This document shows, piece by piece, positions 2,245 through 59,495 of a stretch of 64,000 bases of DNA. The stretch lies in NCBI RefSeq assembly GCF_044704955.1, contig NW_027254534.1, positions 62,001 through 126,000 of the forward strand, read 5' to 3'. The notes under the pieces are model-generated. The model saw only the letters and a list, made by a program, of their open reading frames with translations. It ran no database searches and was not told where the DNA came from. The DNA comes from Pristiophorus japonicus. Its lineage: Eukaryota. Made by a program: the position numbers and the translations under genes. Every line of letters starts with the position of its first letter. Within the stretch, counting starts at the first letter, position 1.

Positions 2245-2900
2245 AGGAGTGGTGAGGGAGTCCACAACAAGGGGAAATAACCTTCAAGTCAGAGCTAGGC
2301 CATTCAGGGGTGATGTCAGGAAGCACTTCCTCACACAAATGCTGAGAGGCTGTTTCTCTTGGCTCGAGAGTCTAGAAATAGGGGTCACAGTCTTGGGATA
2401 AGGGGTCGGCTATTTAGGACTGAGATGAGAAATGTCTTCACTCAGGGATGTGAATCTTTGGAATTCTCTAATCCAGAGGACTGTGGATGCTCAGTCATTG
2501 AGTATATTCAGGGCTGAGATAGATAGATTTTTGGGCACGAAAGGAATCAAGGGATACGGGGATAGTGAGGGAAAGTGGAGTTGAGGGAGAAGATCAGCCA
2601 TGATCTTATTGAATGGCGGAGCAGGCTCGAGGGACCGCATGGCCCACTCCTCCGATTTCTTATCCTCATATGTTCTTCAAGGGTAGTGGAAATCAAGAAC
2701 TCTGTTCCCAATAAAACTGAGGATGGGGGATAATTGAAAATTACAAAACTGAGGTTGATAGATTCTTCTTCGGCAAAGGTATTAAGGGCGATGGAACCAA
2801 GGCAGGTAGACGGAGTTAAAATACTGATCAGCCATGATTTAATTGAATGGCGGAACAGGCTCAAGGGGCCGAATGGTCTTTTCCTGTTCCTATGTTCCTG
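2245..2900 (+). mobile_element. Two nested CR1 3' ends (insert ~2341-2676 inside a host CR1 3' fragment)
   Basis: Host ..CACACAAA/AGGGTAGTGGAAATC is split by a second 3' end with its own tail; both end in GAATGGCGGA..GGCTC..CC tail motifs. Confidence 0.8.
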
Positions 2901-3272: not shown

Positions 3273-3626
3273 GAGAAGGGTAAAATAGTAGCAATTTGTG
3301 CAATATGCCTTGTTCTCTCCCTGGATCTTAAACTACTGAACTCACTCTTCCTCTAAAACTTCAGCTTGGTGTCCCTCAGTCCCTACTCCTTGATTTACCA
3401 CACCTTCTCTCTCTTTCCCCCTGGATGTGTTCCACACTCTGGACCTTGGGCCTTCCCCAGGGATTCTCAGTATGAAGAGGGGGAATGTGTGTTGAGACAG
3501 GATGTCCCAGCTCTCCACCTTTAAAGGGACACGGAGAGGACCAGCTGGGCTGAATGGCCTGCTTTATGACATCACTGCAGTGCCTCGCAACCAACCTCAC
3601 TGAGCCCTGCTCATTGTGGACTGGCA

Positions 3627-3820
3627 GTGTTTGATGGGACAGTGTAGAAGGAGCTTTACTCTGTATCTAACCCGTGCTGTACCTGCCCTGGGAGTGGTTG
3701 ATGGGACAGTGTAGAGGGAGCTTTACTCTGTATCTAACCCGAGATGTACCTGCCCTGGGAGTGGCTGATGGGACAGTGTAGAGGGAGCTTTACTCTGTAT
3801 CTAACCCATGCTGTAGCTGA
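3627..3820. repeat. 67-bp tandem repeat, ~3 copies
   Basis: GATGGGACAGTGTAG at 3633, 3700 and 3767. Confidence 0.92.
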
Positions 3821-32024: not shown

Positions 32025-32490
32025 TGTTCTATTCGTTCCGTCAGTCTCTGGTGTGTGAGTGTTTCCCTGTCAGTTTCTAATAGGCGGATGTGGGTTTTAC
32101 TTGCATATTATTGTTCAGATACGTGGATGTGGGTTTCATACTGTACCGGTCAGTTTCTGTGATGTGAATGTGGGTTTTATTCTGTACCTGTCAGTTTCTG
32201 GTATGTGAGTGTGGGTTTTATTCTGAACCTGTCATTTTCTAGTATCTGAGTGGGATTTATTCTGTATCTGTCAGTTTCTGGTATGTGTGCGTTGGTTTTA
32301 TTCTGTATCTGTCAGCTTCTGGTATGTGAGAGTGTGTTTTATCCTATATCTGTGATTTTTTTTCTCTCATTATATTGGATGAATGCGATTCAGAAATATT
32401 TTGAGTAGAGACGAGCTATTAGTACATAATATAAACCATATGTGTCTGTGGTACAGTGAGTGAGTGTGGGATTCATTCTGTATCTGTCAT
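32025..32490. repeat. Degenerate 41-bp satellite
   Basis: TTCTGTACCTGTCAGTTTCTGGTATGTGAGTGTGGGTTTTA; same family as 59943-60890 and 62340-64000. Confidence 0.85.
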
Positions 32491-32859
32491 AAATGCAAGT
32501 GTTTGTTGTTGCTGTAGAAATGAAGCTTTTCAGTTACTTATGGTGGCTAACATTTACGCAGAAGAAAATGTCAGAAGCAGCCTCGTGGATAACCATCAGA
32601 AAAGTGCTGTTACTGGTGAGATCACGATGTGCTCGATACAAACTTGGCTAATAACTCTAGAGGTGATGGAAAAGAAAGCAACATTTGAGCGAGATGAGAA
32701 AACATAATCAGCACAAGGAGCCCAATCAGAGAGCTGGTGGGCAAGAAGCAGTGAGCTCCTGTTTACTGCCCGATGCTATTTCCAAAACAATGGGGAAGAA
32801 CAGTCCCTGGATCTGTGAACTTGAGGAGGCCTTTCAGCACATGGAACCTGGAGGCAAAT

Positions 32860-34685
32860 CATACCTTCGAGCCTGTTACATAAGGAACAGGAGGAGGCCA
32901 TTCAGTCCCTTCGAGCCTGTTACATAAGGAACAGGAGGAGGCCATTCAGTCCCTCGAGCCTGTTACATAAGTAACAGGAGGTGGGCATTCAGCACCTCAG
33001 CCATGCTAATAAAGGAATTGATGGAGGCGATGCATCGACTGGATACTGTTACACAGGAATAGAGGCGGCCATCCATCCTCTGGAGCCTTTCACATCGGAA
33101 CAGGGGTAGGCCATTCAGACCCTCAAGCGTGTTATGTAGGAACTGGAGGAGGCCATTCAGCCCACCGACAATGTTATAGGAACTGGAAGAGGCCAATAAG
33201 CCAGTCGCACATGTTATATTGGAACTGGAAGAGGCCACTCATCCCATCTAACTTATTACACAGGAACAGGAGGTGGCTGTTCAGCACCGAATGTTGTTAG
33301 ACAGGATCAGGATGAGGCCATTCTTCCCCTTGAGCCTGTTACATTGGATCAGGAGGATGCCATTCTGCCCTTCCATTCTGTTATGTGGGAAGAAGAAGAG
33401 TCCATTCAGCCTCTCTAACATTAGAAACACAAGCAAACCACTCAGCCTTTGATTCTGTGACATGGGAACAGCAGGACGTTTTTCATCCCCTCGAGCTTCT
33501 TACATTAGGAACAGGAGAAGACCACTCAGTCCCTCGGGTCTGTTACATAGGAATAGGAGTAGGCCAATTCCACCCCTCGGAACTGTTAACCAGGAACAGG
33601 AGGTGACCATTCATCCCCTCAAGCCTGTTACAGAGGAATTGGAGGAGGCCATTCAGCCCCTCCTGCATGTTATATAGGAGCAGGAGGAGGCCATTCAGCT
33701 CTTCGAGCTTATTATATTAGGAACTGGAGAAAGCCATTCAGCTCCTCAAGCCTATTACATTAGGAACTGGAGGGGGTCATCAGCTCCTCGAGCCTATTAC
33801 GTTAGGAACTGGAGAGGGCCATTCAGCTCCTCGAGCCTATTACATTAGGAACTGGAGCGGGTCATTCAGTTGCTCGAGCCTATTACATTAGGAACTGGAG
33901 GGGGTCATTCAGCTCCTCGAGCCTATTACGTTAGGAACTGGAGAGGGCCATTCAGCTCCTCGAGCCTATTACATTAGGAACTGGAGGGGGTCATTCAGCT
34001 CCTCAAGCCTATTACATTAGGAACTGGAGGGGGTCATTCAGCTCCTCGAGCCTATTACGTTAGGAACTGGAGAGGGCCATTCAGCTCCTCGAGCCTATTA
34101 CATTAGGAACTGGAGCGGGTCATTCAGTTGCTCGAGCCTATTACATTAGGAACTGGAGAGGGCCATTCAGCTCCTCGAGCCTATTACATTAGGAACTGGA
34201 GAGGGCCATTCAGCTCCTCGAGCCGATTATATTAGGAACTGGAGAGGGCTATTCAGCAACTGGATTTAAAAAGCAATAGGATGATGCAATTCTGCCCCTT
34301 GGGTCTGTTACATTAGGAATAGGACAAAGGCAATCATCCCCATGGGATTGTTTCATGGGAACAGGAGGAGGCCATTCAGCCCCTCAAGCTTGTTACATAG
34401 GAACTGGAGGAGGCTATTCAGCCCCTGGAACCTGTTACATCAGAACTAAAGGAGGCCATTCATCCCATTCTAGCCTGATACATAGGTACAGGAGGAGGTC
34501 ATTCTGCCCCTAGAGGTGGTACCTATGAACAGGAGGAGGCCAATAAGTCCCTCGTGTTTATAACATTAGGAACACGAGAAGGCCACTCAGTATCTCCAGT
34601 CTGTTAATTTAGGAACAGGAGACGGTTATCAGCCCCCTCGGGCCTGTTACACAGGAATAGGAGGCGGCCATTCAGCACCACAAAC
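32860..34685 (-). repeat. 42-43 bp satellite (~40 units) derived from the CR1 3' terminus
   Basis: Unit TAGGAAC(A/T)GGAGGAGGCCATTCAGCCCCTCGAGCCTGTTACA is the reverse complement of the CR1 end AGGCTCGAGGGGC(C/T)GAATGGCCTACTCCTGTTCCTA. Confidence 0.9.
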
Positions 34686-34699
34686 ATGTTTAATTCGGA

Positions 34700-35770
34700 T
34701 AACCTGTCTGTATACCCGCACAGTGTGATAGGTACCGTACCTATTGTGTGTGAGAAGGAGCTGGTTGCACTGTTCCTTATGTCTCAGGTGGAGGAAACTT
34801 CACATTTGTTCTGGTTCCTTCAATTTCTTGCCTGTAGGAGGATAAGGTACCTCTGATCATTCAAGAACAGGAGAGGTAGAAAAGACTAAAGTGATGAATG
34901 TAATCGTTCAATTAATATTCATTATGAACATTCACAAAGGGAAGCCAGCGATACAAACAGTGTCAGTGTCTGACTCCACTGCAGTACTGCAGTACTGAGC
35001 TTCTGCACACCAAGTGTGTTGGGCAGATTTACAGCAATTTACTGACATCCAGACACAACCCAACCCCTGCTTCAGGAATGGGACTACCCGATGGAGCACG
35101 AACTTTTACACAGCTCAGATTGCTACTCCCCTCTCCCAGGGCACTAACCGTTCAACCAGAAACAAAGAGCCGCTGTTTAAAACGTGTCCTTCACATTTCT
35201 CACCCGGTGCCTGCAATAGATGCTCCTTGTATAAATCCTCAGTGTCCGGCTCTGCTTCCACCGCTCGTTGTCCAATGACAACAAACACAGTGAGACTGGA
35301 ACTAAAGCAGGAACGTTCACTACTGGTTTGCAGGGAGAAAGCAGCAATGATTGTAAACAGCAGATCCTTCCCATTCTGTCTCCCTTACCCGGGACACACG
35401 CTGTCCACACACAGCCCGAGAATGGTCTCTCCCTTCCCCCACTCACTCCACGCACTGAGACCAGTTCTTGCTCCACTCCGCCTGTTATACACAGACCCCG
35501 ACTCCCCCTGAACTTCCCCCGGACTCAGTGCCGATCTCTGAGCCCATCTGCGGACACGCTCCCAAAGCGATGTGCTGCTGTAAGGAGGCTGCTGCTCGCT
35601 GCCTTACCCCGAGACCGCGGTGTGTCCATTCCCGGCTGTTTAAACCATCTTCCGTTCACTGACTGAATGGCGCTCACAGGCTGGGCTGGGGGAGGGGAAG
35701 GCGCATGCGCTCTTCTGCTCACTGGAAATCGACTCAAGGTTCGGGGCTTAATCGCGCATGCGCAGCTCTG
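34700..35770 (-). other. Duplicated promoter/leader-exon module, copy B, with two perfect NRF1-type motifs
   Basis: Homologous to 61030-62215; GCGCATGCGC at 35701-35710 and 35754-35763; donor GGG|GTAAGG at ~35605. Confidence 0.7.
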
Positions 35771-36954
35771 CAATAATTCAGCCTTCAAAAAGCAAAGTGC
35801 ACTTTTCTCGATTTACTTTTATCAGAATCTGAGCAAAGGAACTGGGCCTGGGGGGCAAGGACAGAGAATGTTTAAAGCTGGGGGCCTTGCCCCTTTGAGA
35901 TGCTCAATTTGTGATCATTCCGTGCAGGGTTTTTTTCTCTTCGTGAGCCTGTCCTCACAAAGTAATCCTGCAGAAACATCGGAGGGACGGCAGAGTAGGA
36001 GTGTTTGCTGGAACTGTGCAGGAGTCAATATCTGACAGAAACTGTCCCAGTTTAATTTAATCAGAGTGAAACATTCGGTCACTGAGAGTAATACCGAACG
36101 GCCCTGAGCTGCAAGATTACAGAGAGTACAACAGGCAAGCGAGGGTTAAATGTGGGACCTTGTTTCTCTCACTCTCTGACACTGTTCCGCAGTGTGGGGC
36201 TAATAATGTGTCTGTCTGTGGTACAATATCAGTGAGAGAGGGGACTGCATCTTCTGTCCCTCCAATGGGATCTTTCAGGATAAAACCGGACCTCACAGGT
36301 CAGTCTAGAACTGATACTGTGCACGTTTCTGTGTCTCACCGTCCTGCCTCGCACTCCCCTGTCTCTCTCTCTCAGCCCACTCTTTCTCTCTCTGTCGCTT
36401 TCCCCTTTCTCTTGTACTGTCTGTGAAGGCGGGATTCTGTTATTTCGCGTGATGTGGAAACACTTATGAGTACAACACAATAGGAGCAGGGAGGTCTTAC
36501 TGCAGTTGCACAGGGCCTTGGTGAGGTCACACCTTGAATGTTGTGTACAGTTTTGGTCTTCTAATCTGAGGAAGGACATTCTTGCTATTGAGAGAGTGCA
36601 GCAAAGGTTCACCAGACTGATTCCCGGGATGGCAGGACTGACATATGAAGAAAGACTGGATAGAATAGACTTATATTCTCTGGAATTTAGAAGAATGAGA
36701 GGGAATCTCATAGAAACATATAAAATTATGACGGGATTGGACAGGTTAGATGCAGGAAGAATGTTCCCGATGTTGGGGATGTCCAGAACCAGAGGTCACA
36801 GTCTAAGGATAAGGGGTAAGCCATTTAGGACCGAGATGAGGAGAAACTTCTTCACTCAGAGAATTGTTAACCTGTGGAATTTTCTACCACAGAAAGTTGT
36901 TGAGGCCAGTTCGTTAGATATATTCAAAAGGGAGTTAGATATGGCCCTGATGGC

Positions 36955-40300: not shown

Positions 40301-41094
40301 TAAATGTGTGGTAAAAACAGAGAGACGGACTATTATCTGAATGGTGACAGATTAGGAAAAGGAGAGGTGCAATGAGACCTGGGTGTCATGGTACACCAGT
40401 CATTGAAGGTTGGCATGCAGGTACAGCAGGCGGTTAAGAAAGCAAATGGCATGTTGGCCTTCATAGCGAGGGGATTTGAGTACAGGGACAGGGAGGTGTT
40501 GCTACAGTTGTACAGGGCCTTGGTGAGGCCACACCTGGAGTATTGTGTACAGTTTTTGTCTCCTAACCTGAGGAAGGACATTCTTGCTATTGAGGGAGTG
40601 CAGCGAAGGTTCACCAGACTGATTCCCGGGATGGCGGGACTGACCTATCAAGAAAGACTGGATCAACTGGGCTTGTATTCACTGGAGTTCAGAAGAATGA
40701 GAGGGGACCTCATAGAAACGTTTAAAATTCTGATGGGTTTAGACAGGTTAGATGCAGGAAGAATGTTCCCAATGTTGGGGAAGTCCAGAACTAGGGGTCA
40801 CAGTCTAAGGATAAGTTGTAAGTCATTTAGGACCGAGATGAGGAGAAACTTCTTCACCCAGAGAGTGGTGAACCTGTGGAATTCTCTACCACAGAAAGTT
40901 GTTGAGGCCAATTCACTAAATATATTCAAAAAGGAGTTAGATGTAGTCCTTACTACTAGGGGGATCAAGGGGTATGGCGAGAAAGCAGGAATGGGGTACT
41001 GAAGTTGCATGTTCAGCCATGAACTCATTGAATGGCTGTGCAGGCTAGAAGGGCCGAATGGCCTACTCCTGCACCTATTTTCTATGTTTCTATG
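36955..41094 (+). mobile_element. Near-full-length CR1: monomeric 5' UTR, ORF1 (37489-38437, zinc motif and SGNH esterase), ORF2 (APE and RT, ~38515-41002); inactivated
   Basis: CSSCTMWE..CRKC, IGDSIVRG, ITETWL, MGDFN, SDHN, KFADD; ~394-bp deletion at 39372 relative to 57351-57744; several frameshifts. Confidence 0.97.
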
Positions 41095-42257
41095 AAAGGG
41101 ATCAAGGGGTATGGAGAGAAAGCAGGAATGGGGTACTGAAGTTGCATGATCAGCTATGATCATATTGAATGGTGGTGCAGGCTTGAAGGGCCGAATGGCC
41201 TACTCCTGCACCTATTTTCTATGTTTCTATGATACTGTTTCTGTTTCTCTCTCTGTTGCTATACATGACGGTGTGGCACTGTTACTGAGCGTAATATGGA
41301 GACACTGATACCAAGTGTAAGACTAATAATGTGTCTCTTTCCCTCTCTTTCGGTGGTGCTGTACATGAATGTGTGATACTATTATTGAGCGTAATATGGA
41401 GACACAGTTAGGGAGTTTAAGACTGATTCTGTGTCTGTCTCTCTGTCGCTCCCTCTGATAGCCATCTCTGGGTGGTGAGCATGGTATGGATAGTTCACCA
41501 GTTACTGTGATATGTCCCTCATTTTCGGAGGATAGAGACAGACAAAGAGAGGGTGGATGGGCGGTGAACTCATAATTTCTATTTTCACGTTAATCAAACA
41601 TATTTCTGCGTACGAACAATGTAACAACTTAACAGCATATATAGGTTAAGCCAGCCACAGCTGTGATTGGCTCCTGCCCCTGAATCTGGGGAACAGACAC
41701 TGAGGAGCGCCGACCTCAGAGTGTTTAACACTTACTGAGCTGGGAAACTTAAAAAACCCCGAGAATCGGCAGCACAGGCCGAGCGGAGAGGTAACCCTGT
41801 GCTGGGAGCTGTAAATCTGGGATAGTTTGTGCTGTGAATGTGCAGATGTGAACATTGTGTGAGCGAGAGTGTGTTAAAGGGGCGGGCCGGTGAGACTAAT
41901 GTCACTGTGTTTGTGTGTCCGTCTCATCGCCGGATTCCAGAGTCCCTCTTGTATAAAATTCAAAGATTTTCCTGTCACAGGATCACCCTGCTGCCCTGCT
42001 CAGGTCTAAAGTGGGAATTAAACGTTAAGTTTGATGTGATTTCAAATTTCAATCGAAAAACGAAGAAAATGTCCGCAATCGGGTGAGAGAGCGCGATCAG
42101 TGCAGCAATGAAACGGGTTTAAATCTAAATTGCTGCCTTCAATTCGGAGGAAGCTTTCTCGACAACAAACATCCCGGTCTTCGGGACAGAAAGAGGCCAG
42201 TCTGGGAATCTGGAGGGCCCGGGTTGAATTGGAATCGGACAGTTAATGAGGAGAGAG

Positions 42258-42330
42258 AAACACAGAGAGGCTGGAGGGGCGGGGAGCTGACAGCAGGATG
42301 TCTCCGCCCCGTCCGCTCGCTGCCTTTAAG
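42258..42330 (+). promoter_or_regulatory. H1 promoter: H1 (AC) box, GC boxes, TATA-like CTTTAAG
   Basis: AAACACA at 42258-42264, GGGGCGGGG at ~42276. Confidence 0.75.
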
Positions 42331-42408
42331 TTGCTCTGTGCCGCCGCCTCCCGTTTCATTTCTGACCGAGCTCTGACTGTCAGAGAGATTTTTCACAGAG
42401 TCGCGGAC

Positions 42409-43107
42409 ATGACTGACACTGCAGCCGCCGAAACGGCTCCTCCTGCCGCCGCCGCTCAAACCAAGGCTCTCAGCAAGAAGAAGAAGCCAGCTCCCCGCTC
42501 CAAGCCAGCCGGTCCCACGTTGGGCGAACAGATCCTCAAGGTTGTGGCCGATGGCGGCGATCGCAAGGGGATGTCCCTGTCCGCGATAAAGAAGGCTCTG
42601 GCGGCCAAAGGCGTGAATGTGGAGAAGCGCGGGTCCCAGATCAGGTTCAGTATCAAGAGGAATGTGACAAATGGCTTCCTGGTGCAGACCAAGGGCACGG
42701 GCGCCTCGGGTTCCTTCAGAGTCGCTAAGAAGGAAAACCAGGGGAAAGTGGGAACGAAGGTGAAGAAACCAGCAGCCAAGAAATCCCCAGGCAAAAAACC
42801 AGTAGCCAAGAAATCTCCGACCAAGAAACCAGCAGCCAAGAAATCTCCGGCCAAGAAACCAGCAGCCAAGAAATCTCCGGCCAAGAAACCAGCAGCCAAG
42901 AAATCTCCGGCCAAGAAAACGAACACCAAGAAGGCGCCAACAGTAAAAAAGACAGCGAAAGCTGCGGCTGGGAAGAAGGCGACAGCGGCGACGCCCAAGA
43001 GCCCCAAGAAGGCCTCGGGCGCAAAGGTGAAGGTGGCCAAAAAGGTGGAAAAACCGAGGGCCAAGGCCAAATCAGCAAAACCCAAGAAAGCAGCGCTCAA
43101 AAAGTAA
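42409..43107 (+). CDS. H1: Histone H1 (232 aa), replication-dependent
   Basis: [13 protein letters not shown]-tail, globular domain ([24 protein letters not shown]), K/A/P-rich tail; stem-loop at 43143-43158. Confidence 0.97.
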
Positions 43108-43142
43108 ATAAAAAGTGCAACTTGTAAACATCTGAACCCAAA

Positions 43143-43158
43143 GGCTCTTCTCAGAGCC
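43143..43158 (+). terminator. Histone 3' stem-loop (H1) with downstream purine-rich HDE
   Basis: GGCTCTTCTCAGAGCC-ACCCA, then GAAAAGAG. Confidence 0.95.
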
Positions 43159-43899
43159 ACCCACATTTCTCAGAAAAGAGTTGATCCCCGAATCAAATGA
43201 TCCCTGTCCCGGGGCCGGGCTCAGATTTCAGACAGAAATCATTGAACATGAAGCCAGGATCCCTGGTGACTCGCTGACATTGGCTGCACTCACCCCTCCC
43301 CCAGTGTCTGCAATAAAACACACATTGAGAACGGGATGTCCGGCCCGGACCTCACTAACTGGGGATGTGTTCAGCTCCAGTCTCAGTTCCTGCTCATTGT
43401 CATTTTCAGGGGGAGAGTCTGTGAGACGGTGATACTGGCGGAGATACCCCGCCTCACAACTCAAACCCCAAACACCACATTCTCCAAATCAGCTGGAATA
43501 AGGTGTTTGTAAACTGCTGAACCCTTCTGTGAGAGGAAGTGTGGGGAGATGGAACAAGGTCTGAGATTGACAGGGAAAGGGCTGTATATAGGCGGGAATA
43601 TTCGCGATTGTTAATTGTAACGGGACCTTATTTAAAAGCTTCTGGTTCCTGGAAGCTTTGAATATAAATTCCGAGTCTGTTTCGGTTCTATTGTCGGAAA
43701 ACGGTTTGAAATTGGCGGCTGCAGAAAGCTGGAGGCGGAGCTGGAAGATCAGAGGCCGCTCACTGCTCTGTCTGTCAATCTTGACTGTCTCCTCCCCTTC
43801 CCGCCTCTCTCACTCTGCGCTTTCTCAGTCAGGTCGGCTCCGGCTCTATAAAAAGGAGCCGGCAGCAGTTCACTTCTCATTCAGCAGCTGTTTGAGTGA

Positions 43900-44223
<324 letters not shown>

Positions 44224-44359
44224 ATAACTCGACCCTTTTCCCCCAATCACAACACAAAGGCTCTTCTAAGAGCCACCCACCGGTTCACAGAGAGAGCAGC
44301 GACCTGGGGATCGGAACGCGGACAGTTGGGTTGGGAAATGGTTTCGGCTGTTTAATTAA

Positions 44360-44640
44360 TGGAAAGAAAGGTTTGGATTTATATAGCGCCTTTCACGACC
44401 ACCGAACGTCTCAAGACATAGAAACAGAAAATATGTGCAGGAGTAGAATAGGCCATTCGGCCCTTCGAGCCTGCACCGCCATTCAACAAGATCACAGCTG
44501 ATCACCCACTCCAGCACCTCCACTCCCCGACCCCCGCCCCCCCTCAGCCGCAAGGACCACATCCAACTCCCTCCCGAACACATCCAATGAACAAGACCAA
44601 TGAAGTACTTTTGGAGTGTAGTCGCTGTAGGAATATGGGA
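44360..44640 (-). mobile_element. DeuSINE 3' tail interrupted by a short CR1 3' end
   Basis: TTTATATAGCGCCTTTCACGACC and CAATGAAGTACTTTTGGAGTGTAGTC flank a CR1 tail at ~44416-44505. Confidence 0.6.
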
Positions 44641-45138
44641 ATTATTAAATATTTTACAACTATTGTAAATATGAGAGATCAAAAATTCCGGCTGACAGTC
44701 ACAATTACTGGGCAGGATACACAGTCCCAGACATTACAGTCTCCCCTCACAGATAATTCCTGTCATGTGCGGTTTCTGTGTGAGAATCGGTTAAATGGGA
44801 CGGCACTGGCGGGATTGATGCGGGACTTTATGTTTACAGGAAGCAGTGACCGGGGATTTATTCCCGCCCGGTACAGACGGATCACGGAATGGAACAGAAT
44901 TCAAACCGGAATGTGACAGAATGGGATTGGTGACTTATAATGGGGCACAATCGCCGTTATAAAGAGCGGGATTCTTAAATTGCTGGCGGGAAATTAGATT
45001 TTATTTAATCTCTGTTGGTTGATATTCTGAAATTGGCGGGCTTTTTGAAATTGACCAACTGTCAGTTTCAGTTCAGCCAATCAGGGCCCAGTAATCCCCA
45101 CCCTTCATTTTCACTCTCGGTGCTTGGTTCAAACTTGA

Positions 45139-45675
<537 letters not shown>

Positions 45676-46372
45676 NNNNCCCCTGCCTCGGCTCGAAGCT
45701 TCAGCACCAAGTGCAACAACGGCTCTTTTCAGAGCCACCAAATCAGCAAAGGAAAGAGCTGCGATCTCCTGTAACCAGAGTTTCGTGTTGTTCATTAACC
45801 TATTGTAGGGACGGGCAGAGGGTGTGGGACTGATTACTGCTCGTGTGTTCATATACCAGCTCAGTTCACATGTGAGTTATTGACGATTAACTGATGAGCC
45901 CTTTAATATTTTCGGAAACTGACATCGGCTTTGCGTCGCTCTGACCCCAAGTTCCCCGGGGCAGAACACAGATTTCCCTATTCGGTGTTGCCGGAGAATG
46001 GGGGCAGGCAGATCTGGGAAGCACTGCAATTGACCCGGATCCTGTATGTGTTGTGCAGTGCGGTCTAAACTGACCGGCTTAGCAGAGAAATAAAGAGCCC
46101 GGGAACGGCCGGAGCTCCCGAGAACGAAACCAGCATTCAAACTATCTCAAACCAGACCAGAATTAAACTAGGCCCTTTTATTACTACATTAATTCATCAT
46201 CGCCGACTCTCTCGTTTTCAGACAGATTAAAGAATATTTAAAGAACCGGTGGCGGTATTTATACAATTGTTGAGTGACAACTGTAGTTCAATTATTCGCT
46301 GTTAACGGCAAGAGTGTATGTGTGAGCAGAGAACCGTACTGCAGAGACCGTGAACTGAAAACTCCCGCATAC

Positions 46373-46637
46373 GGATAAGGGGTAAGCCATTTAGGACTGA
46401 GAGGAGAAACTTATTCACTCATAGTTGTTAACCTGTGGAATTCCCTACCGCAGAGAGTTGTTGATGCCAGTTCGTTAGATATATTCAAGAGGGAGTTAGA
46501 TGTGGCCCTTATGGCTAAAGGGATATTGAAAGAAAGCAGAAAAGGGGTACTGAGGGAATAATCAGCCATGATCTTCTTGAATGGTGGTGCAGGCTCGAAG
46601 GGCCGAATGGCCGCCTCCTGCACCTATTTTCTATGTT
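46373..46637 (+). mobile_element. CR1 3' end with 3-bp TSD (TAC)
   Basis: Empty paralogous site CCCGCATACAGGTCT at ~49894. Confidence 0.9.
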
Positions 46638-46777
46638 TACAGGTCTAAAACAGGCCAATCTATCGGTACATGAATTAAAGGTCTCTGACTCCATTAAGAC
46701 AGTAAGCAGCCCTTTCACAGATCCTGTGGGTGGCTCTGAAAAGAGCCTTTGGGTTATTAGATTAAATCTTGTCCGCT

Positions 46778-47281
<504 letters not shown>

Positions 47282-48126
47282 TCATTGGTCTTTTCCGCTG
47301 ACCAATCACCGTCTGCTTCGCCTGCCAATGAAAAGAGGGCGAAAATTACTGTTCGACTTCCAACGAATCTTCAATTTCAAAAACCCCGCCAATAATTTTT
47401 ACAATGCGGATTATGTTAATAAATTCACCATTAGCCAAAGATTTCCAAACACTTTTTATTTCCTTTTGCCGTATTCCATATTACCTTCAAAATTCCAGGA
47501 TGTTACAATCAGGTTTAAATTCGGGTTCAGTTTCATACGTTCTGTAACGGGACACATTCCAGCTCAATCTTTGTACAATTTGGGAATCACAGATCATGGA
47601 TCGATCCTCCGCACAGGCGGGATTGAGACCAGAACTGGGAGTTCTTCTGTGAAAAGAGAAGAGGGACACAGGATTCAAACTCCCTGTTCTGGACTCTGTA
47701 AGAACTCCCAGTCTGGGCCGTTGCACTCGGAATCTCGGATTAATAAGCGGGTTGACCCGAACTAGAATTTTTTTTGTATTGTAAAGGGCTTGAGAGAGAA
47801 TGAGGTGACTAAAGTCTGAATTTCACCTCCTAAAACAAGATCATAATTCATTGGCAGGCGGCCAGGGACAGTGTGTGCACTTTACTGGGAGGGAAATTCA
47901 TCAGAGAAGCTAAGGTTGAACCGGACAGTAAAACTGCTTATCTGAGAATTCAAATCTAAATCTACAGCTGGAACTTTAAATGTTGTCAAACACTTGCTCA
48001 GGAAATAACTACAGCAAATTGAATTTAAAGGGTAATGTGTTTGTGCAGCTCTTTCAGAGACGTTGTGGGTGGCTCTTAAAAGAGCCGTTGTGTTTCTGGT
48101 TTGTTGTATCAGGACAGAGTGGAGTT

Positions 48127-48504
48127 TTACTTGGAGCTGGTGTACTTGGTTACCGCCTTTGTCCCTTCCGACACGGCGTGCTTGGCCAGCTCCCCGGGCA
48201 GCAGCAGGCGCACGGCGGTCTGGATCTCCCGGGAGCTGATGGTGGATCGCTTGTTGTAATGGGCCAGGCGGGAAGCCTCACCCGCGATGCGCTCAAAAAT
48301 ATCGTTCACAAAAGAGTTCATGATGCCCATGGCCTTGGAGGAGATGCCGGTGTCGGGGTGAACCTGCTTCATCACTTTGTAGATGTAGATGGAGTAACTC
48401 TCCTTCCTCGACTTCCTGCGCTTCTTACCGCCCTTCGGTGGTGTTTTCTTGATCACTTTCTTGGCGCCTTTCTTGGCAGTAACTGATTTCTTCTCTTCAG
48501 GCAT
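48127..48504 (-). CDS. H2B: Histone H2B (125 aa)
   Basis: MPEEKK..KYTSSK; stem-loop at 48071-48086; TATA, octamer-like ATTAGCAT and CCAAT upstream. Confidence 0.98.
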
Positions 48505-49000
48505 CGTTTTGTTCAATCCGACGCAGACATGACCTAAACTTAGCTCGGAGCTCGCATTATATAGGCAGCCCCACACTCCGCCCACAGCCCTATGCTAATG
48601 AGGGATGGGTGAAGGCAACGATTGTGATTGGTTCACTCGCTGCGTTGTCAATTTCTATTGTTCTGTAATTCTCTGATTGGTCTCTTTAAACATCCAATCA
48701 GATTTACTGCTCGCCACAATCTCAAATTCTTGAATTAGGTCATCAGTTACATCCCCTCCCGAGCCATATTCTGTTCTTTATCGATCGAGATGTCTACATG
48801 TTCGACAGACATTGACCGGTTTGTAACCGAGATTGTCTGAGGGTCACTTCTGGTTAGGATTTGGGAGTCCTTCTATGAGGCAAAAGGCCCTCACTGTCCT
48901 TCCGCTCTCCTCCCACCGTTTAATTCAACACCTTTCTGATCTGTCACTGCTGTAACTACATTAGTTGTTTCAGTGTTACCTTCACCTGGAATATGCCGTA

Positions 49001-51816: not shown

Positions 51817-52100
51817 CGTCTTGTTCAGTCAGTTATAGATATGAAGGAAAGTCTGCTCCGGGCTCGTATTATATAGGCAGCCCCACACTCCGCCCACATC
51901 CCTATGCTAATAAGGGATGGGTAAAGGTAACGATTGTGATTGGTTCATTAGCTCCGTTGTCAATTTCCATTGTTCTGTATCTCTCTGATTGGATGTTTAA
52001 AGGGACCAATCAGATTTATTGCTCGCCACAATCTCAAATTCTTGAATTCGGTCATCAATGACATCCCCTCCCGATTTATACTCCGTTCTTTATGTTTCTG

Positions 52101-53232
52101 CGGCGCCTAAATTCTGCCAACGTCCGCCACGCGGCCGATGCCATCGAGTCGCTAAAAACAGCTCTGGGCCCTGACTCCGTTAGGTGCATCGAGGAGGCTC
52201 AGGCACTTGGGGAGATCCCGTCCGAACTGACCCCCGTCCGGACGGAATTCCTCATCGGTGCCAAACCCCGGAACCTCCCTCGGGGGCCGGCGCCTCACAA
52301 CTTGAGCCGCCTCAGGGAAATCCCCTCCGTGCCTTTCAGTTCCGCGCGGAGGGGTTTCCTGTACGGGCTGCTCCTGCACACCCTCAACTTTGCCATCCTC
52401 GCCGGCCGTCCGGACACGCCATGGCGTACCATCTTGCCGTCCGGAGGAGGCGGGGGTCCCCGATGGAGGGCACTCTACGCAGGGGTCCTCCCACTATTCA
52501 TCGGGGACTTGGCCTGGAGGGTGGTGCACGGAGCAGTGCCGTGCAACAAATTTTTAAGCCGGTTCACGGACTCCCAGGCCGCCTGCAATTTCTGCGGTCT
52601 GGAGGAGTCCGTGTTCCATGTTTTTATGGAGTGCACAAGGTTGCAGCCCCTGTTCCACTATTTGAAGGGGCTGCTCCTGAAATTCTGGCTGCACTTCAGT
52701 CCCACTCTCCTGATCTTTGGGCACCCTGTGCGGAGGGGAGCGGGTAGGTCCGAAGGCCTCCTCGTAGGACTGCTCCTGGGCACGGCCAAGGGTGCCATCA
52801 GCCGGTCCAGGCAGCGGGCGGTCGAGGGGGTCGTTCAACCTGACTGCCTGCCTCTCTTCCGCTCTTACATCCGGTCCAGGGTGTCCTTGGAGATGGAGCA
52901 CGCGGTGTCCACCGGTACGCTCGCGGCCTTCCGCGAGAGGTGGGCACCGGAGGGACTGGAGTGCATCATCACGCCCGGCAACCAAATTTTAATTTGATTT
53001 TACGTTTTAAAGTTAATTTGTTTTAATTGCCGGTGCTTTTAGTGTCCCCTTCCCTTTTATAGGGGGCACTGGGGAAAAATTGTGATTTTAGTGCCCAAAA
53101 AAAAAAACAAAAAAAAAAACACAAAAAAAAAACCAAAAAAAGGAAAAAAGGGCCTTGTAAATGTCTGGTGTGTCACCCAGGTCGGGTGGCACAGTTTAAT
53201 GTTTATGTTTTGCAGGTAGACTCTAAAAGAAT
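52101..53232 (+). mobile_element. 5'-truncated Tx1/L1-clade retrotransposon (ORF2 C-terminal zinc-binding region, 3' UTR) with 15-bp TSD
   Basis: DLAWRVVHG, CNFCGLEESVFHVFMEC; A-rich 3' UTR; TTCTTTATGTTTCTG at 52086-52100 and 53233-53247. Confidence 0.93.
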
Positions 53233-56011: not shown

Positions 56012-59000
56012 TGCAGGACATTCTAAAAAGGGAGGGAGAACAGCCAGTTGTCGTGGTGCACGTTGGTACCAACGACATAGGTAAAAAAAAGGGATGAGGT
56101 CCTACGAAATGAATTTAAGGAGCTAGGAGCTAAATTAAAAAGTAGGACCTCAAAAGTAGTAATCTCGGGATTGCTACCAGTGCCACGTGCTAGTCAGAGT
56201 AGGAATCGCAGGATAGCTCAGATGAATACGTGGCTTGAGCAATGGTGCAGCAGGGAGGGATTCAAATTCCTGGGTCATTGGAACCGGTTCTGGGGGAGGT
56301 GGGACCAGTACAATCCGGACGGTTTGCACCTGGGCAGAATCGGAACCAATGTCCTCGGGGGAGTGTTTGCTCGTGCTGTTGGGGAGGAGTTAAACTAATA
56401 TGGCAGGGGGATGGGAACCAATGCAGGGAGATATAGGGAAACATAAAGGAGGCAAAAGCAAAAGACAGAAAGGAGATGAGGAAAAGTGGAGGGCAGAGAA
56501 ACCCAAGGCAAAGAACAAAAAGGACCATTGTACAGCAAAATTCTAAAAGGACAGAGGGTGTTAAAAAAACAAGCCTAAAGGCTTTGTGTCTTAATGCAAG
56601 GAGTATCCGCAATAAGGTGGATGAATTAACTGTGCAAATAGATGTTAACAAATATGATGTGATTGGGATTACAGAGACGTGGCTCCAGGATGATCAGGGC
56701 TGGGAACTCAACATCCAGGGGTATTCAACATTCAGGGGTATTCAACATTCAGGAAGGATAGAATAAAAGGAAAAGGAGGTGGGGTAGCATTGCTGGTTAA
56801 GGAGGAGATTAAGGCAATAGTTAGGAAGGACATTAGCTTGGATGATATGGAATCTATATGGGTAGAGCTGCAGAACACCAAAGGGCAAAAAACGTTAGTG
56901 GGAGTTGTGTACAGACCTCCAAACAGTGGTAGTGATGTTCGGGAGGGCATCAAACAGGAAATTAGGGGTGCATGCAATAAAGGTGCAGCAGTTATAATGG
57001 GTGACTTTAATATGCACATAGATTGGGCTAACCAAACTGGAAGCAATACAGTGGAGGAGGATTTCCTGGAGTGCATAAGGGATGGTTTTTTAGACCAATA
57101 TGTCGAGGAACCAACTAGGGGGGAGGCCATCTTAGACTGGGTGTTATGTAATGAGAGAGGATTAATTAGCAATCTCGTTGTGCGAGGCCCCTTGGGGAAG
57201 AGTGACCATAATATGGTGGAATTCTGCATTAGGATGGAGAATGAAACAGTTAATTCAGAGACCATGGTCCAGAACTTAAAGAAGGCTAACTTTGAAGGTA
57301 TGAGGCGTGAATTGGCTGGGATGGATTGGCGAATGATACTTAAGGGGTTGACTGTGGATGGGCAATGGCAGACATTTAGAGACCGCATGGATGAACTACA
57401 ACAATTGTACATTCCTGTCTGGCATAAAAATAAAAAAGGGAAGGTGGCTCAACCGTGGCTATCAAGGGAAATCAGAGATAGTATTAAAGCCAAGGAAGTG
57501 GCATACAAATTGGCCAGAAATAGCAGCGAACCTGGGGACTGGGAGAAATTTAGAACTCAGCAGAGGAGGACAAAGGGTTTGATGAGGGCAGGGAAAATAG
57601 AGTACGAGAGGAAGCTTGCAGGGAACATTGAAACAGACTGCAAAAGCTTCTATAGATATGTAAAGAGAAAAAGGTTAGTAAAGACAAACGTAGGTCCGCT
57701 GCAGTCAGAATCAGGGGAAGTCATAACGGGGAACAAAGAAATGGCAGACCAATTGAACAAGTACTTTGGTTCGGTATTCACGAAGGAGGACACAAACAAC
57801 CTTCCGGTTATAAAAGGGGTCGGGGGGTCGAGTAAGGAGGAGGAACTGAGGGAAATCCTTATTAGCCGGGAAATTGTGTTGGGGAAATTGATGGGATTGA
57901 AGGCCGATAAATCCCCAGGGCCTGATGGACTGCATCCCAGAGTACTTAAGGAGGTGGCCTTGGAAATAGTGGATGCATTGACAGTCATTTTCCAACATTC
58001 CATTGACTCTGGATCAGTTCCTATAGAGTGGAGGGTAGCCAATGTAACCCCACTTTTTAAAAAAGGAGGGAGAGAGAAAACAGGGAATTATAGACCGGTC
58101 AGCCTGACATCGGTAGTGGGTAAAATGATGGAATCAATTATTAAGGATGTCATAGCAGTTCATTTGGAAAGAGGTGACATGATAGGTCCAGATCAGCATG
58201 GATTTGTGAAAGGGAAATCATGCTTGACAAATCTTCTGGAATTTTTTGAGGATGTTTCCAGTAGAGTGGACAAAGGAGAACCAGTTGATGTGGTATATTT
58301 GGACTTTCAGAAGGCTTTCGTCAAGGTCCCACACAAGAGATTGATGTGCAAAGTTAAAGCACATGGGATTGGGGGTAGTGTGCTGACATGGATTGAGAAC
58401 TGGTTGTCAGACAGGAAGCAAAGAGTAGGAGTAAATGGGTACTTTTCAGAATGGCAGGCAGTGACTAGTGGGGTACCGCAAGGTTCTGTGCTGGGGCCCC
58501 AGCTGTTTACACTGTACATTAATGATTTAGATGAGGGGATTAAATGTAGTATCTCCAAATTTGCGGATGACACTAAGTTGGGTGGCAGTGTGAGCTGCGA
58601 GGAGGATGCTGTGAGGCTGCAGAGCGACTTGGATAGGTTAGGTGAGTGGGCAAATGCATGGCAGATTAAGTATAATGTGGATAAATGTGAGGTTATCCAC
58701 TTTGGTGGTAAAAACAGAGACAGACTATTATGTGAATGGTGACAGATTAGGAAAAGGGGAGGTGCAAAGAGACCTGGGTGTCATGGTACATCAGTCATTG
58801 AAGGTTGGCATGCGGGTGCAGCAGGCGGTTAAGAAAGCAAATGGCATGTTGGCCTTCATAGCAAGGGGATTTGAGTACAGGGGCAGGGAGGTGTTGCTAC
58901 AGTTGGACAGGGCCTTGGTGAGGCCACACCTGGAGTATTGTGTACAGTTTTGGTCTCCTAACCTGAGGAAGGACATTCTTGCTATTGAGGGAGTGCAGCG

Positions 59001-59495
59001 AAGGTTCACCAGACTGATTCCCGGGATGGCGGGACTGACCTATCAAGAAAGACTGGATCAACTGGGCTTGTATTCACTGGAGTTCAGAAGAATGAGAGGG
59101 GACCTCAGAAACATTTAAAATTCTGACGGGGTTAGACAGGTTAGATGCAGGAAGAATGTTCCCAATGTTGGGGAAGTCCAGAACCAGAGGTCACAGTCTA
59201 AGGATAAGGGGTAAGCCATTTAGGACCGAGATGCGGAAGAACTTCTTCACCCAGAGAGTGGTGAACCTGTGGAATTCTCTACCACAGAAAGTTGTTGAGG
59301 CCAATTCACTAAATATATTCAAAAAGGAGTTAGATGAGGTCCTTACTATTAGGGGGAATCAAGGGGTATGGCGAGAAAGCAGGAATGGGGTACTGAAGTT
59401 GAATGTTCAGCCATGAACTCATTGAATGGCGGTGCAGGCTAGAAGGGCCGAATGGCCTACTCCTGCACCTATTTTCTATGTTTCTATGTTTCTAT
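56012..59495 (+). mobile_element. Young CR1, 5'-truncated in ORF1; ORF2 nearly complete (650-aa open stretch)
   Basis: Same family as 36955-41094; frameshifts from a 17-bp duplication CAGGGGTATTCAACATT (~56717-56750) and small deletions at ~58720 and ~59106; tail (TTTCTATG)3. Confidence 0.97.

What the first reader, a model, noticed from the sequence alone, without database searches (positions are those of the whole stretch)
32860..34685. 1.8-kb array of head-to-tail CR1 3' termini
Seen: ~40 units of 42-43 bp. The minus strand (AGGCTCGAGGGGCTGAATGGCCTCCTCCTGTTCCTA(A)TGTAA) reproduces only the last ~40 nt of the CR1 elements in this window, with no upstream CR1 body. Known: stringent LINEs (CR1/L2) recognise their conserved 3' tail to start reverse transcription. 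Inference: the array arose by iterative priming/template jumping or by amplification of one minimal insertion. It sits just downstream (minus strand) of the module-B promoter at 35.7 kb, so a transcript would carry ~40 sense CR1 recognition tails. It could act as an RT decoy, a mobilisable non-autonomous RNA or a small-RNA source.
Basis: partly seen in the sequence, partly recalled or inferred. Interest (0 to 1): 0.72.

Follow-up and report, generated by a model that had tools for sequence, protein, structure and literature searches.

The report
Decayed intronic CR1-tail minisatellite in shark
This run of about 43 short repeats is a worn copy of a genome-wide repeat made from the hairpin-shaped tail of a common jumping gene; here it sits inside what is likely an intron that is cut out of the RNA, so it is probably a passenger rather than a decoy, while how the same repeat reached many unrelated jumping-gene ends remains only inferred.

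Summary
The array is real: 43-44 head-to-tail units at 32,867-34,690 whose minus strand is the terminal stem-loop of a CR1 LINE. It is not unique: the unit junction occurs 41,922 times genome-wide, mostly near contig ends, and 26 of 38 dispersed arrays hang on a CR1 body. Only 1 of 30 ends of that lineage has an array; array-bearing ends are not a clade, yet 37 of 40 arrays share one unit, so arrays were likely gained repeatedly. The window copy is old: about 17% decayed, 0 of 44 units keep the full hairpin, no constraint seen; it was multiplied with a histone-cluster module (about 132 copies). Contigs of run X1 (kind not on record) join 32,656 to 34,74x across it, at GT-AG ends: it is probably intronic, which undercuts the decoy idea. 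Closest kind: retroposon-derived satellites (PMC10702118). This scan noted similar CR1-tail arrays in other shark genomes.

The parts
32867..34690 (-). Minisatellite of 43-44 units of 42-43 bp; each unit is the CR1 3' terminal stem-loop plus a few bases of tail; no CR1 body attached
33720..34232 (-). Units 12-23: recent local re-expansion of one variant unit; varies in number between module copies
34235..34690 (-). Units 1-11: decayed, orthologous unit by unit across module copies
32867..33717 (-). Units 24-43: mostly decayed, largely collinear across module copies
35608..35763 (-). Promoter-like region and probable exon 1 (start not mapped); two GCGCATGCGC palindromes at 35,701 and 35,754 (NRF1-like, name recalled)
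34832..35607 (-). Probable intron 1, 776 nt, GT-AG; an X1 contig skips 776 nt here (tool placed the cut 5 nt to the left; re-registered from the sequence)
34741..34831 (-). Probable exon 2, 91 nt
32657..34740 (-). Probable intron 2, 2,084 nt, GT-AG; contains the whole array, which starts about 50 nt after the donor
32538..32656 (-). Probable exon 3, 119 nt (3' edge inferred from one loose end and a GT donor); exons 1-3 have stops in all three frames
32030..32359 (.). Unrelated 41-bp tandem repeat belonging to the same module
2740..2900 (+). Array-free CR1 remnant of the lineage whose tail gave the unit (tail hairpin 2,852-2,890)
42250..48600 (.). Histone H1-H4-H3-H2A-H2B cluster that travels with the module in most copies, H1 facing away from the spliced transcript
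56694..59490 (+). Younger CR1 (endonuclease and RT domains) used as ORF2 and tail reference

Best explanation
The array is an old, decayed copy of a genome-wide 42-bp minisatellite whose unit is the 3' stem-loop of one CR1 lineage; it likely lies in intron 2 of a spliced non-coding transcript and is probably a neutral passenger that was multiplied with its histone-cluster module. Shown: unit origin, family size, module duplication, decay, joins across the array. Inferred: (1) one founding duplication fixed the junction (tail, then back to the 5' arm AACAGG); (2) standard units were later carried onto other, older CR1 ends of the same lineage by homology-guided DNA transfer (ectopic conversion or recombination, favoured near chromosome ends), about even odds against RNA routes and local growth; (3) arrays grow and shrink locally by slippage or unequal exchange; (4) this copy lost or never had its CR1 body, stopped being refreshed, decayed, and was then copied with the module.
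For: Junction motif 41,922 hits at up to 1 mismatch, reversed control 0. 40 fetched arrays of 4 to over 229 units with unrelated 3' flanks; CR1 body of the lineage just upstream in 26 of 38 with a 5' end held. 33 of 44 exact-match loci on C1-C8 within 20 Mb of a contig end, 12% expected. Locus majority within 1 base of the global unit in 37 of 40. Same 19 unit positions: 3.9% divergence in 40 arrays, 11.6% in 24 single ends, p = 2e-6. 0 of 50 leading-unit variants carried by most downstream units in 20 loci. Array-bearing ends not a clade, AU p = 0.00023. Window copy: collinear units in the 8 other copies mapped, 17-19% from the global unit in all 13; 0 of 44 units with all 10 pairs against 686 of 1,336 dispersed units; paired fraction 0.726 against 0.735 shuffled; array 8-9% between copies, introns 3.6-4.3%. 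Loose ends at 32,656 and 32,659 continue into exon 2, one matching 34,745-34,774 at 30 of 30.
Against: The dispersed arrays were picked by an exact 29-base match, which favours well-kept arrays. The tree for the clade test is poorly resolved (1 starred branch; 16 of 52 rows dropped). Local purging of variant units could also keep units close to the ancestral sequence, so import is not proven. No empty pre-insertion site was found. The unit starts exactly at the base of the RNA stem, which a DNA-only route does not explain well. All module copies with a recognisable exon 2 keep at least one unit, and most keep 22 or more, which inheritance explains but retention cannot be excluded.
Confidence: 0.72

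Rival explanations
1. RNA route: the family spreads by the CR1 reverse transcriptase. The enzyme copies the hairpin, jumps back to an RNA 3' end repeatedly, then switches to a longer CR1 RNA; or cDNA made from array RNA recombines into older CR1 tails. The window copy would be an old 5'-truncated product.
For: Unit equals the structured tail; the 5' breakpoint is fixed at the stem base while the tail part varies in length (42, 43, 45, 49-bp variants); anatomy body-array-tail in 26 of 38; 12 of 38 have no body, as 5' truncation would give; template slippage is documented for eel UnaL2, on 5-base repeats (PMC1636434, passages).
Against: Units made at insertion should be as old as the body, but are about three times less diverged; only 1 of 30 lineage ends has an array; no target-site duplication or empty site found; concentration near contig ends fits satellite-type exchange, while the first 100 listed lineage ends spread along C1.
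Confidence: 0.17
2. Independent local growth: each array arose in place by slippage at the hairpin soon after its CR1 inserted, and later turnover purged variants.
For: Arrays sit on ends of several subfamilies; some arrays carry locus-specific variants in blocks; the arms can pair within or across units.
Against: Same junction at nearly all loci with no direct repeat to guide it; 0 of 50 leading variants propagate; local-only turnover should let locus consensus drift, yet 37 of 40 match the global unit.
Confidence: 0.2
3. One reading: the transcript presents about 40 sense CR1 tails as an RT decoy, mobilisable RNA or small-RNA source.
For: Tails are in sense orientation to the inferred transcript; the module has about 132 copies, so the pre-mRNA or excised intron would carry many tails; stringent LINEs recognise their 3' ends (PMC3747384, passages).
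Against: Joins skip the array; hairpins are broken and unconstrained; one copy has lost all but one unit (L143); internal tails are not at an RNA 3' end.
Confidence: 0.05

Closest known systems
SINE-derived satellites (sSat1-3) of squamate reptiles, Vassetzky et al. 2023, PMC10702118 (parts 1-4 of 5 of the text read)
   Same: Tandem units cut from part of a retroposon; a longer terminal unit that continues into the parent element; a few to hundreds of units; units more alike (89%) than the parent copies (64%); subtelomeric bias; minor loci without the extended unit.
   Different: Parent here is an autonomous CR1 LINE, the unit is shorter (42 bp against about 70-290) and coincides with the terminal stem-loop; here the array-bearing ends were tested and are not a clade.
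Chicken HinfI (SCR1) repeat and the common cetacean satellite (seen as passages and table rows in reviews PMC9659126 and PMC6947457; originals not read)
   Same: Tandem repeats derived from a LINE 3' region, CR1 in the chicken case.
   Different: HinfI contains part of ORF2 and 3' UTR in a long unit; this unit is only the last 42 bases and remains attached to dispersed parent ends.
Microsatellite seeding by CR1-L3 LINEs in snakes, PMC6050309 (passages)
   Same: CR1 3' ends nucleate tandem repeats genome-wide.
   Different: There the 5-base tail repeat expands and comes with the element; here the whole recognition hairpin is the unit and only a small share of ends carry it.
Eel UnaL2 3' tail and template slippage, PMC1636434 (passages)
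   Same: Two-tier stem-loop followed by a short tail repeat.
   Different: Slippage there is on the 5-base repeat; repeated copying of the whole hairpin was not in the passages read, and RT binding was not tested here.

Membership tests
Retroposon-derived satellite/minisatellite (sSat-like) | Head-to-tail units homologous to part of a retroposon | tested here: met
Retroposon-derived satellite/minisatellite (sSat-like) | Terminal unit extends into the parent element | tested here: met
   26 of 38 dispersed loci, ORF2 C-terminus matches upstream in many; not met by the window copy, which is a body-less variant
Retroposon-derived satellite/minisatellite (sSat-like) | Units more uniform within and between loci than parent copies | tested here: met
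   ascertainment favours this result
Retroposon-derived satellite/minisatellite (sSat-like) | Many loci, biased to chromosome ends | tested here: met
   (contig ends taken as chromosome ends)
CR1 LINE 3' terminus (as source of the unit) | Follows an endonuclease-RT ORF2 and folds as a conserved stem-loop | tested here: met
   Pfam RVT_1 and Exo_endo_phos; 5 of 13 pairs with two-sided changes in 11 ends; the clade name CR1 rests on recalled ORF features, no reference tree was built
Non-autonomous retroelement (SINE-like) mobilised by CR1 | Own 5' head or internal promoter shared by copies | tested here: not met
   5' flanks are truncated CR1 bodies or unrelated DNA; Rfam finds only histone stem-loops in the window
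Non-autonomous retroelement (SINE-like) mobilised by CR1 | Insertions with empty sites or target-site duplications | tested here: inconclusive
   no reconstructable pre-insertion site among the loci tested; library small
RT decoy or small-RNA source | Tails present in a stable RNA | tested here: inconclusive
   contigs join across the array; fate of the excised intron not testable
RT decoy or small-RNA source | Hairpin kept by selection | tested here: not met
RT decoy or small-RNA source | piRNA or siRNA reads, RT binding | not testable with these tools
   no small-RNA or raw RNA reads were offered

The most novel reading that the evidence does not exclude
The 42-bp family is a retro-minisatellite: CR1 reverse transcriptase copies its own recognition hairpin over and over, telomerase-like, and the concatemeric cDNA lands on older CR1 tails by homology, which would explain one fixed junction at the stem base, one standard unit on ends of several subfamilies, and units younger than their hosts. 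The window array would be a fossil of this process.
Probability: 0.15. Interest if true: 0.7.

Novelty: new member of a known kind. Interest (0 to 1): 0.3.

Why it matters
For this locus little: it is a decayed, probably intronic passenger. For the family somewhat more: roughly 10^5 units (about 5 Mb, rough estimate) attached to datable CR1 ends give a clean system to ask how a retroposon-derived satellite spreads between loci, because each array carries an age marker (its host end) and a shared junction. If the RNA route holds, a LINE enzyme would be writing satellite DNA from its own recognition signal.

Tried and rejected
No RNA holder was listed for the array (one run, kind unknown, share 0.20); not used as evidence. 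Depth figures were not used to rank parts, and uncovered bins are not taken as absence. Single array-bearing master subfamily: rejected. Array as a copy of each resident tail: 0 of 50 variants propagate. Empty site in the paralogous module at 59.9-62.3 kb: exon 2 region aligns, the left spacer does not (score 40, shuffle maximum 54.5). Empty sites among 20 further module copies: none; 14 had a recognisable exon 2, 6 were rearranged or interrupted within the stretch fetched. Pre-insertion sites for dispersed arrays: none credible. Unit divergence does not track flank divergence (rho 0.11, n = 15). Protein coding by exons 1-3: stops in all frames; a link to the downstream zinc-finger gene was not shown. 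Rfam: only histone stem-loops. Look-up of earlier scan notes by sequence: nothing. Paper searches for a description of this shark repeat and a word search in PMC13343379 gave none; subscription papers, repeat databases and supplements were not seen and may hold it.

Full report
Observation. TRF reports a 43-bp period in 42.9 copies at 32,867-34,676 with 73% matches; greedy alignment yields 43 units, 44 with a last fragment. A tail motif finds 22 sites in the array and 13 elsewhere in the window, none in shuffles; the 13 are LINE 3' ends. The array's majority unit beats 1,000 shuffles against each of the 13 and is closest to the remnant at 2,852-2,890 (32 of 37). Eleven of these ends fold into one two-tier stem-loop with two-sided changes in 5 of 13 pairs (two weaker ends were left out). 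The unit begins at the 5' arm of the outer stem and ends in the short tail, so it is the terminal hairpin. The LINEs encode endonuclease and RT domains; the name CR1 and the reading of the genome (5.9 Gb) as a shark's rest on recalled features.

The locus is one of many module copies. A 371-base piece of the array found 40 places of 40 candidates scored (2,480 candidates), all on C9:200-229 Mb or small contigs. In 12 of 12 copies fetched with flanks the order is 41-bp repeat, spacer, array, spacer, promoter; histone genes follow on the far side in 11 of the 12. A 26-base word at the left edge gives 132 copies. Units are collinear between the window and the 8 divergent copies mapped, so the array was in place before the module multiplied; units 12-23 are a later re-expansion. 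Unit number is 25-45 in 13 copies and 1-39 in the 14 of 20 further copies that had a recognisable exon 2; L143 has one unit left beside another inserted sequence.

The array probably lies in an intron. The one run offered, X1, has no kind on record. Laid on the right flank, one contig skips 776 bases; the tool placed the cut at 34,826/35,603, and shifting it five bases gives 34,832-35,607, also 776 bases, with GT and AG on the minus strand. Laid on the left flank, loose ends at 32,656 (1 contig) and 32,659 (3 contigs) continue into exon 2; the first equals 34,745-34,774 at 30 of 30. A loose end at 34,744 resembles 32,626-32,655 (21 of 30 by eye). The canonical placement gives a 2,084-base GT-AG intron, 32,657-34,740, holding the whole array. 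The three exons have stops in all frames.

No sign of constraint here. Units are 17-19% from the family unit (trimmed alignments understate this). None of 44 keeps all 10 stem pairs, against 686 of 1,336 dispersed units; pairing is no higher than in column shuffles (0.726, 0.735); G/C sites change at 21% in stems and 19% outside, A/T sites at 10% and 15%. Against seven divergent copies the array differs by 8-9% (one misaligned copy inflates the left part), the introns by 3.6-4.3%, exons 2 and 3 by 7%.

The family is genome-wide. The head-to-tail junction occurs 41,922 times at up to one mismatch, control 0; scaling by 586 matches in 1,757 units gives about 1.3 x 10^5 units, a rough figure that misses decayed arrays such as this one, which has no match. 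Of 44 exact-match loci on C1-C8, merged by hand from the listing, 33 lie within 20 Mb of a contig end (12% expected). Forty loci were fetched: 4 to over 229 units, unrelated 3' flanks apart from one shared neighbouring CR1, and a short CR1 body just upstream in 26 of the 38 whose 5' end was held; one of the 26 (L096) is a younger CR1 that landed inside an array. Among 84 CR1 ends, 17-18 of 19 array-bearing ones fall in one older lineage (8 label changes, 17.6 when shuffled), as expected in part from a lineage-specific search word.

How it spreads. Of the first 30 lineage ends on C1, picked without regard to arrays, 1 has an array. Within the lineage, array-bearing and array-free ends are mixed (13 changes, 12.4 shuffled) and a clade is rejected (AU p = 0.00023; 36 of 52 rows kept, those with short or foreign bodies dropped; tree weakly resolved). 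Yet 37 of 40 loci share one majority unit, units are less diverged than their flanks (4% against 12%, n = 15, p = 3e-4) and than single ends at the same 19 positions (3.9% against 11.6%; 6 of 30 ends dropped), and none of 50 leading-unit variants dominates downstream (20 loci; 4 with odd leading units dropped). I read this as late import of standard units onto older ends by homology-guided DNA exchange, with local growth afterwards. This is inference: selection of arrays by an exact match, and local purging of variants, could mimic it, and the fixed breakpoint at the stem base keeps an RT route open. No pre-insertion site was recovered.

Comparison. SINE-derived satellites of squamates show the same anatomy, uniformity and subtelomeric bias (PMC10702118; parts 1-4 of 5 read). 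LINE-derived cases include chicken HinfI and the cetacean satellite (passages in PMC9659126 and PMC6947457) and CR1 microsatellite seeding in snakes (PMC6050309, passages). Stringent 3' recognition and slippage: PMC3747384 and PMC1636434 (passages). Eight paper searches did not show this repeat; supplements and repeat databases were not seen. Earlier notes of this scan report similar CR1-tail arrays in other shark genomes; they are unchecked and not counted as support.

Verdict. A new member of a known kind, interest 0.3, with a 15% chance that the family is an RT-written satellite.

Noticed in passing
window 32,030-35,800 and about 132 copies on G000:C9:200-229 Mb: A multi-copy, probably spliced non-coding transcription unit faces away from the H1 gene of a histone quintet; related promoter-exon modules recur at 29.7-30.7 and 60.9-62.3 kb, and a loose end suggests exon 3 can join an exon of the next module. 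Exons differ more between copies than introns do.
   Followed up: partly
window 40,961-41,232: A young CR1 ends in a 137-bp tandem duplication of its 3' end, a possible first step towards a tail array with another breakpoint.
   Followed up: no
L080:641-1591, L094:7568-8355, L101:9122-9748, L108:1-768, L090:6578-7259, L108:1086-2686: Other minisatellites (33-56 bp units) resemble slices of L2-like or CR1 sequence, so LINE-derived tandem repeats are common in this genome.
   Followed up: partly
window 3,621-3,819; L031, L033, L078, L108: A dispersed 67-bp minisatellite family often abuts CR1 ends, probably because CR1s insert into it.
   Followed up: no
window 52,062-53,149: End of a Tx1/L1-like element with a poly(A) tail inside the histone cluster; a fragment of its tail is inserted in the promoter of module copy L012.
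   Followed up: no
G000:C3922:62001-126000 against G000:C9:208.59-208.63 Mb: The window contig is 98-99.9% identical over about 36 kb to a stretch of C9, either a very recent duplicate or an unplaced haplotype.
   Followed up: no
window 9.9-10.7, 16.9-17.7, 25.5-27.4 kb: C2H2 zinc-finger genes interspersed with the histone modules; a link to the spliced transcript was not shown.
   Followed up: no
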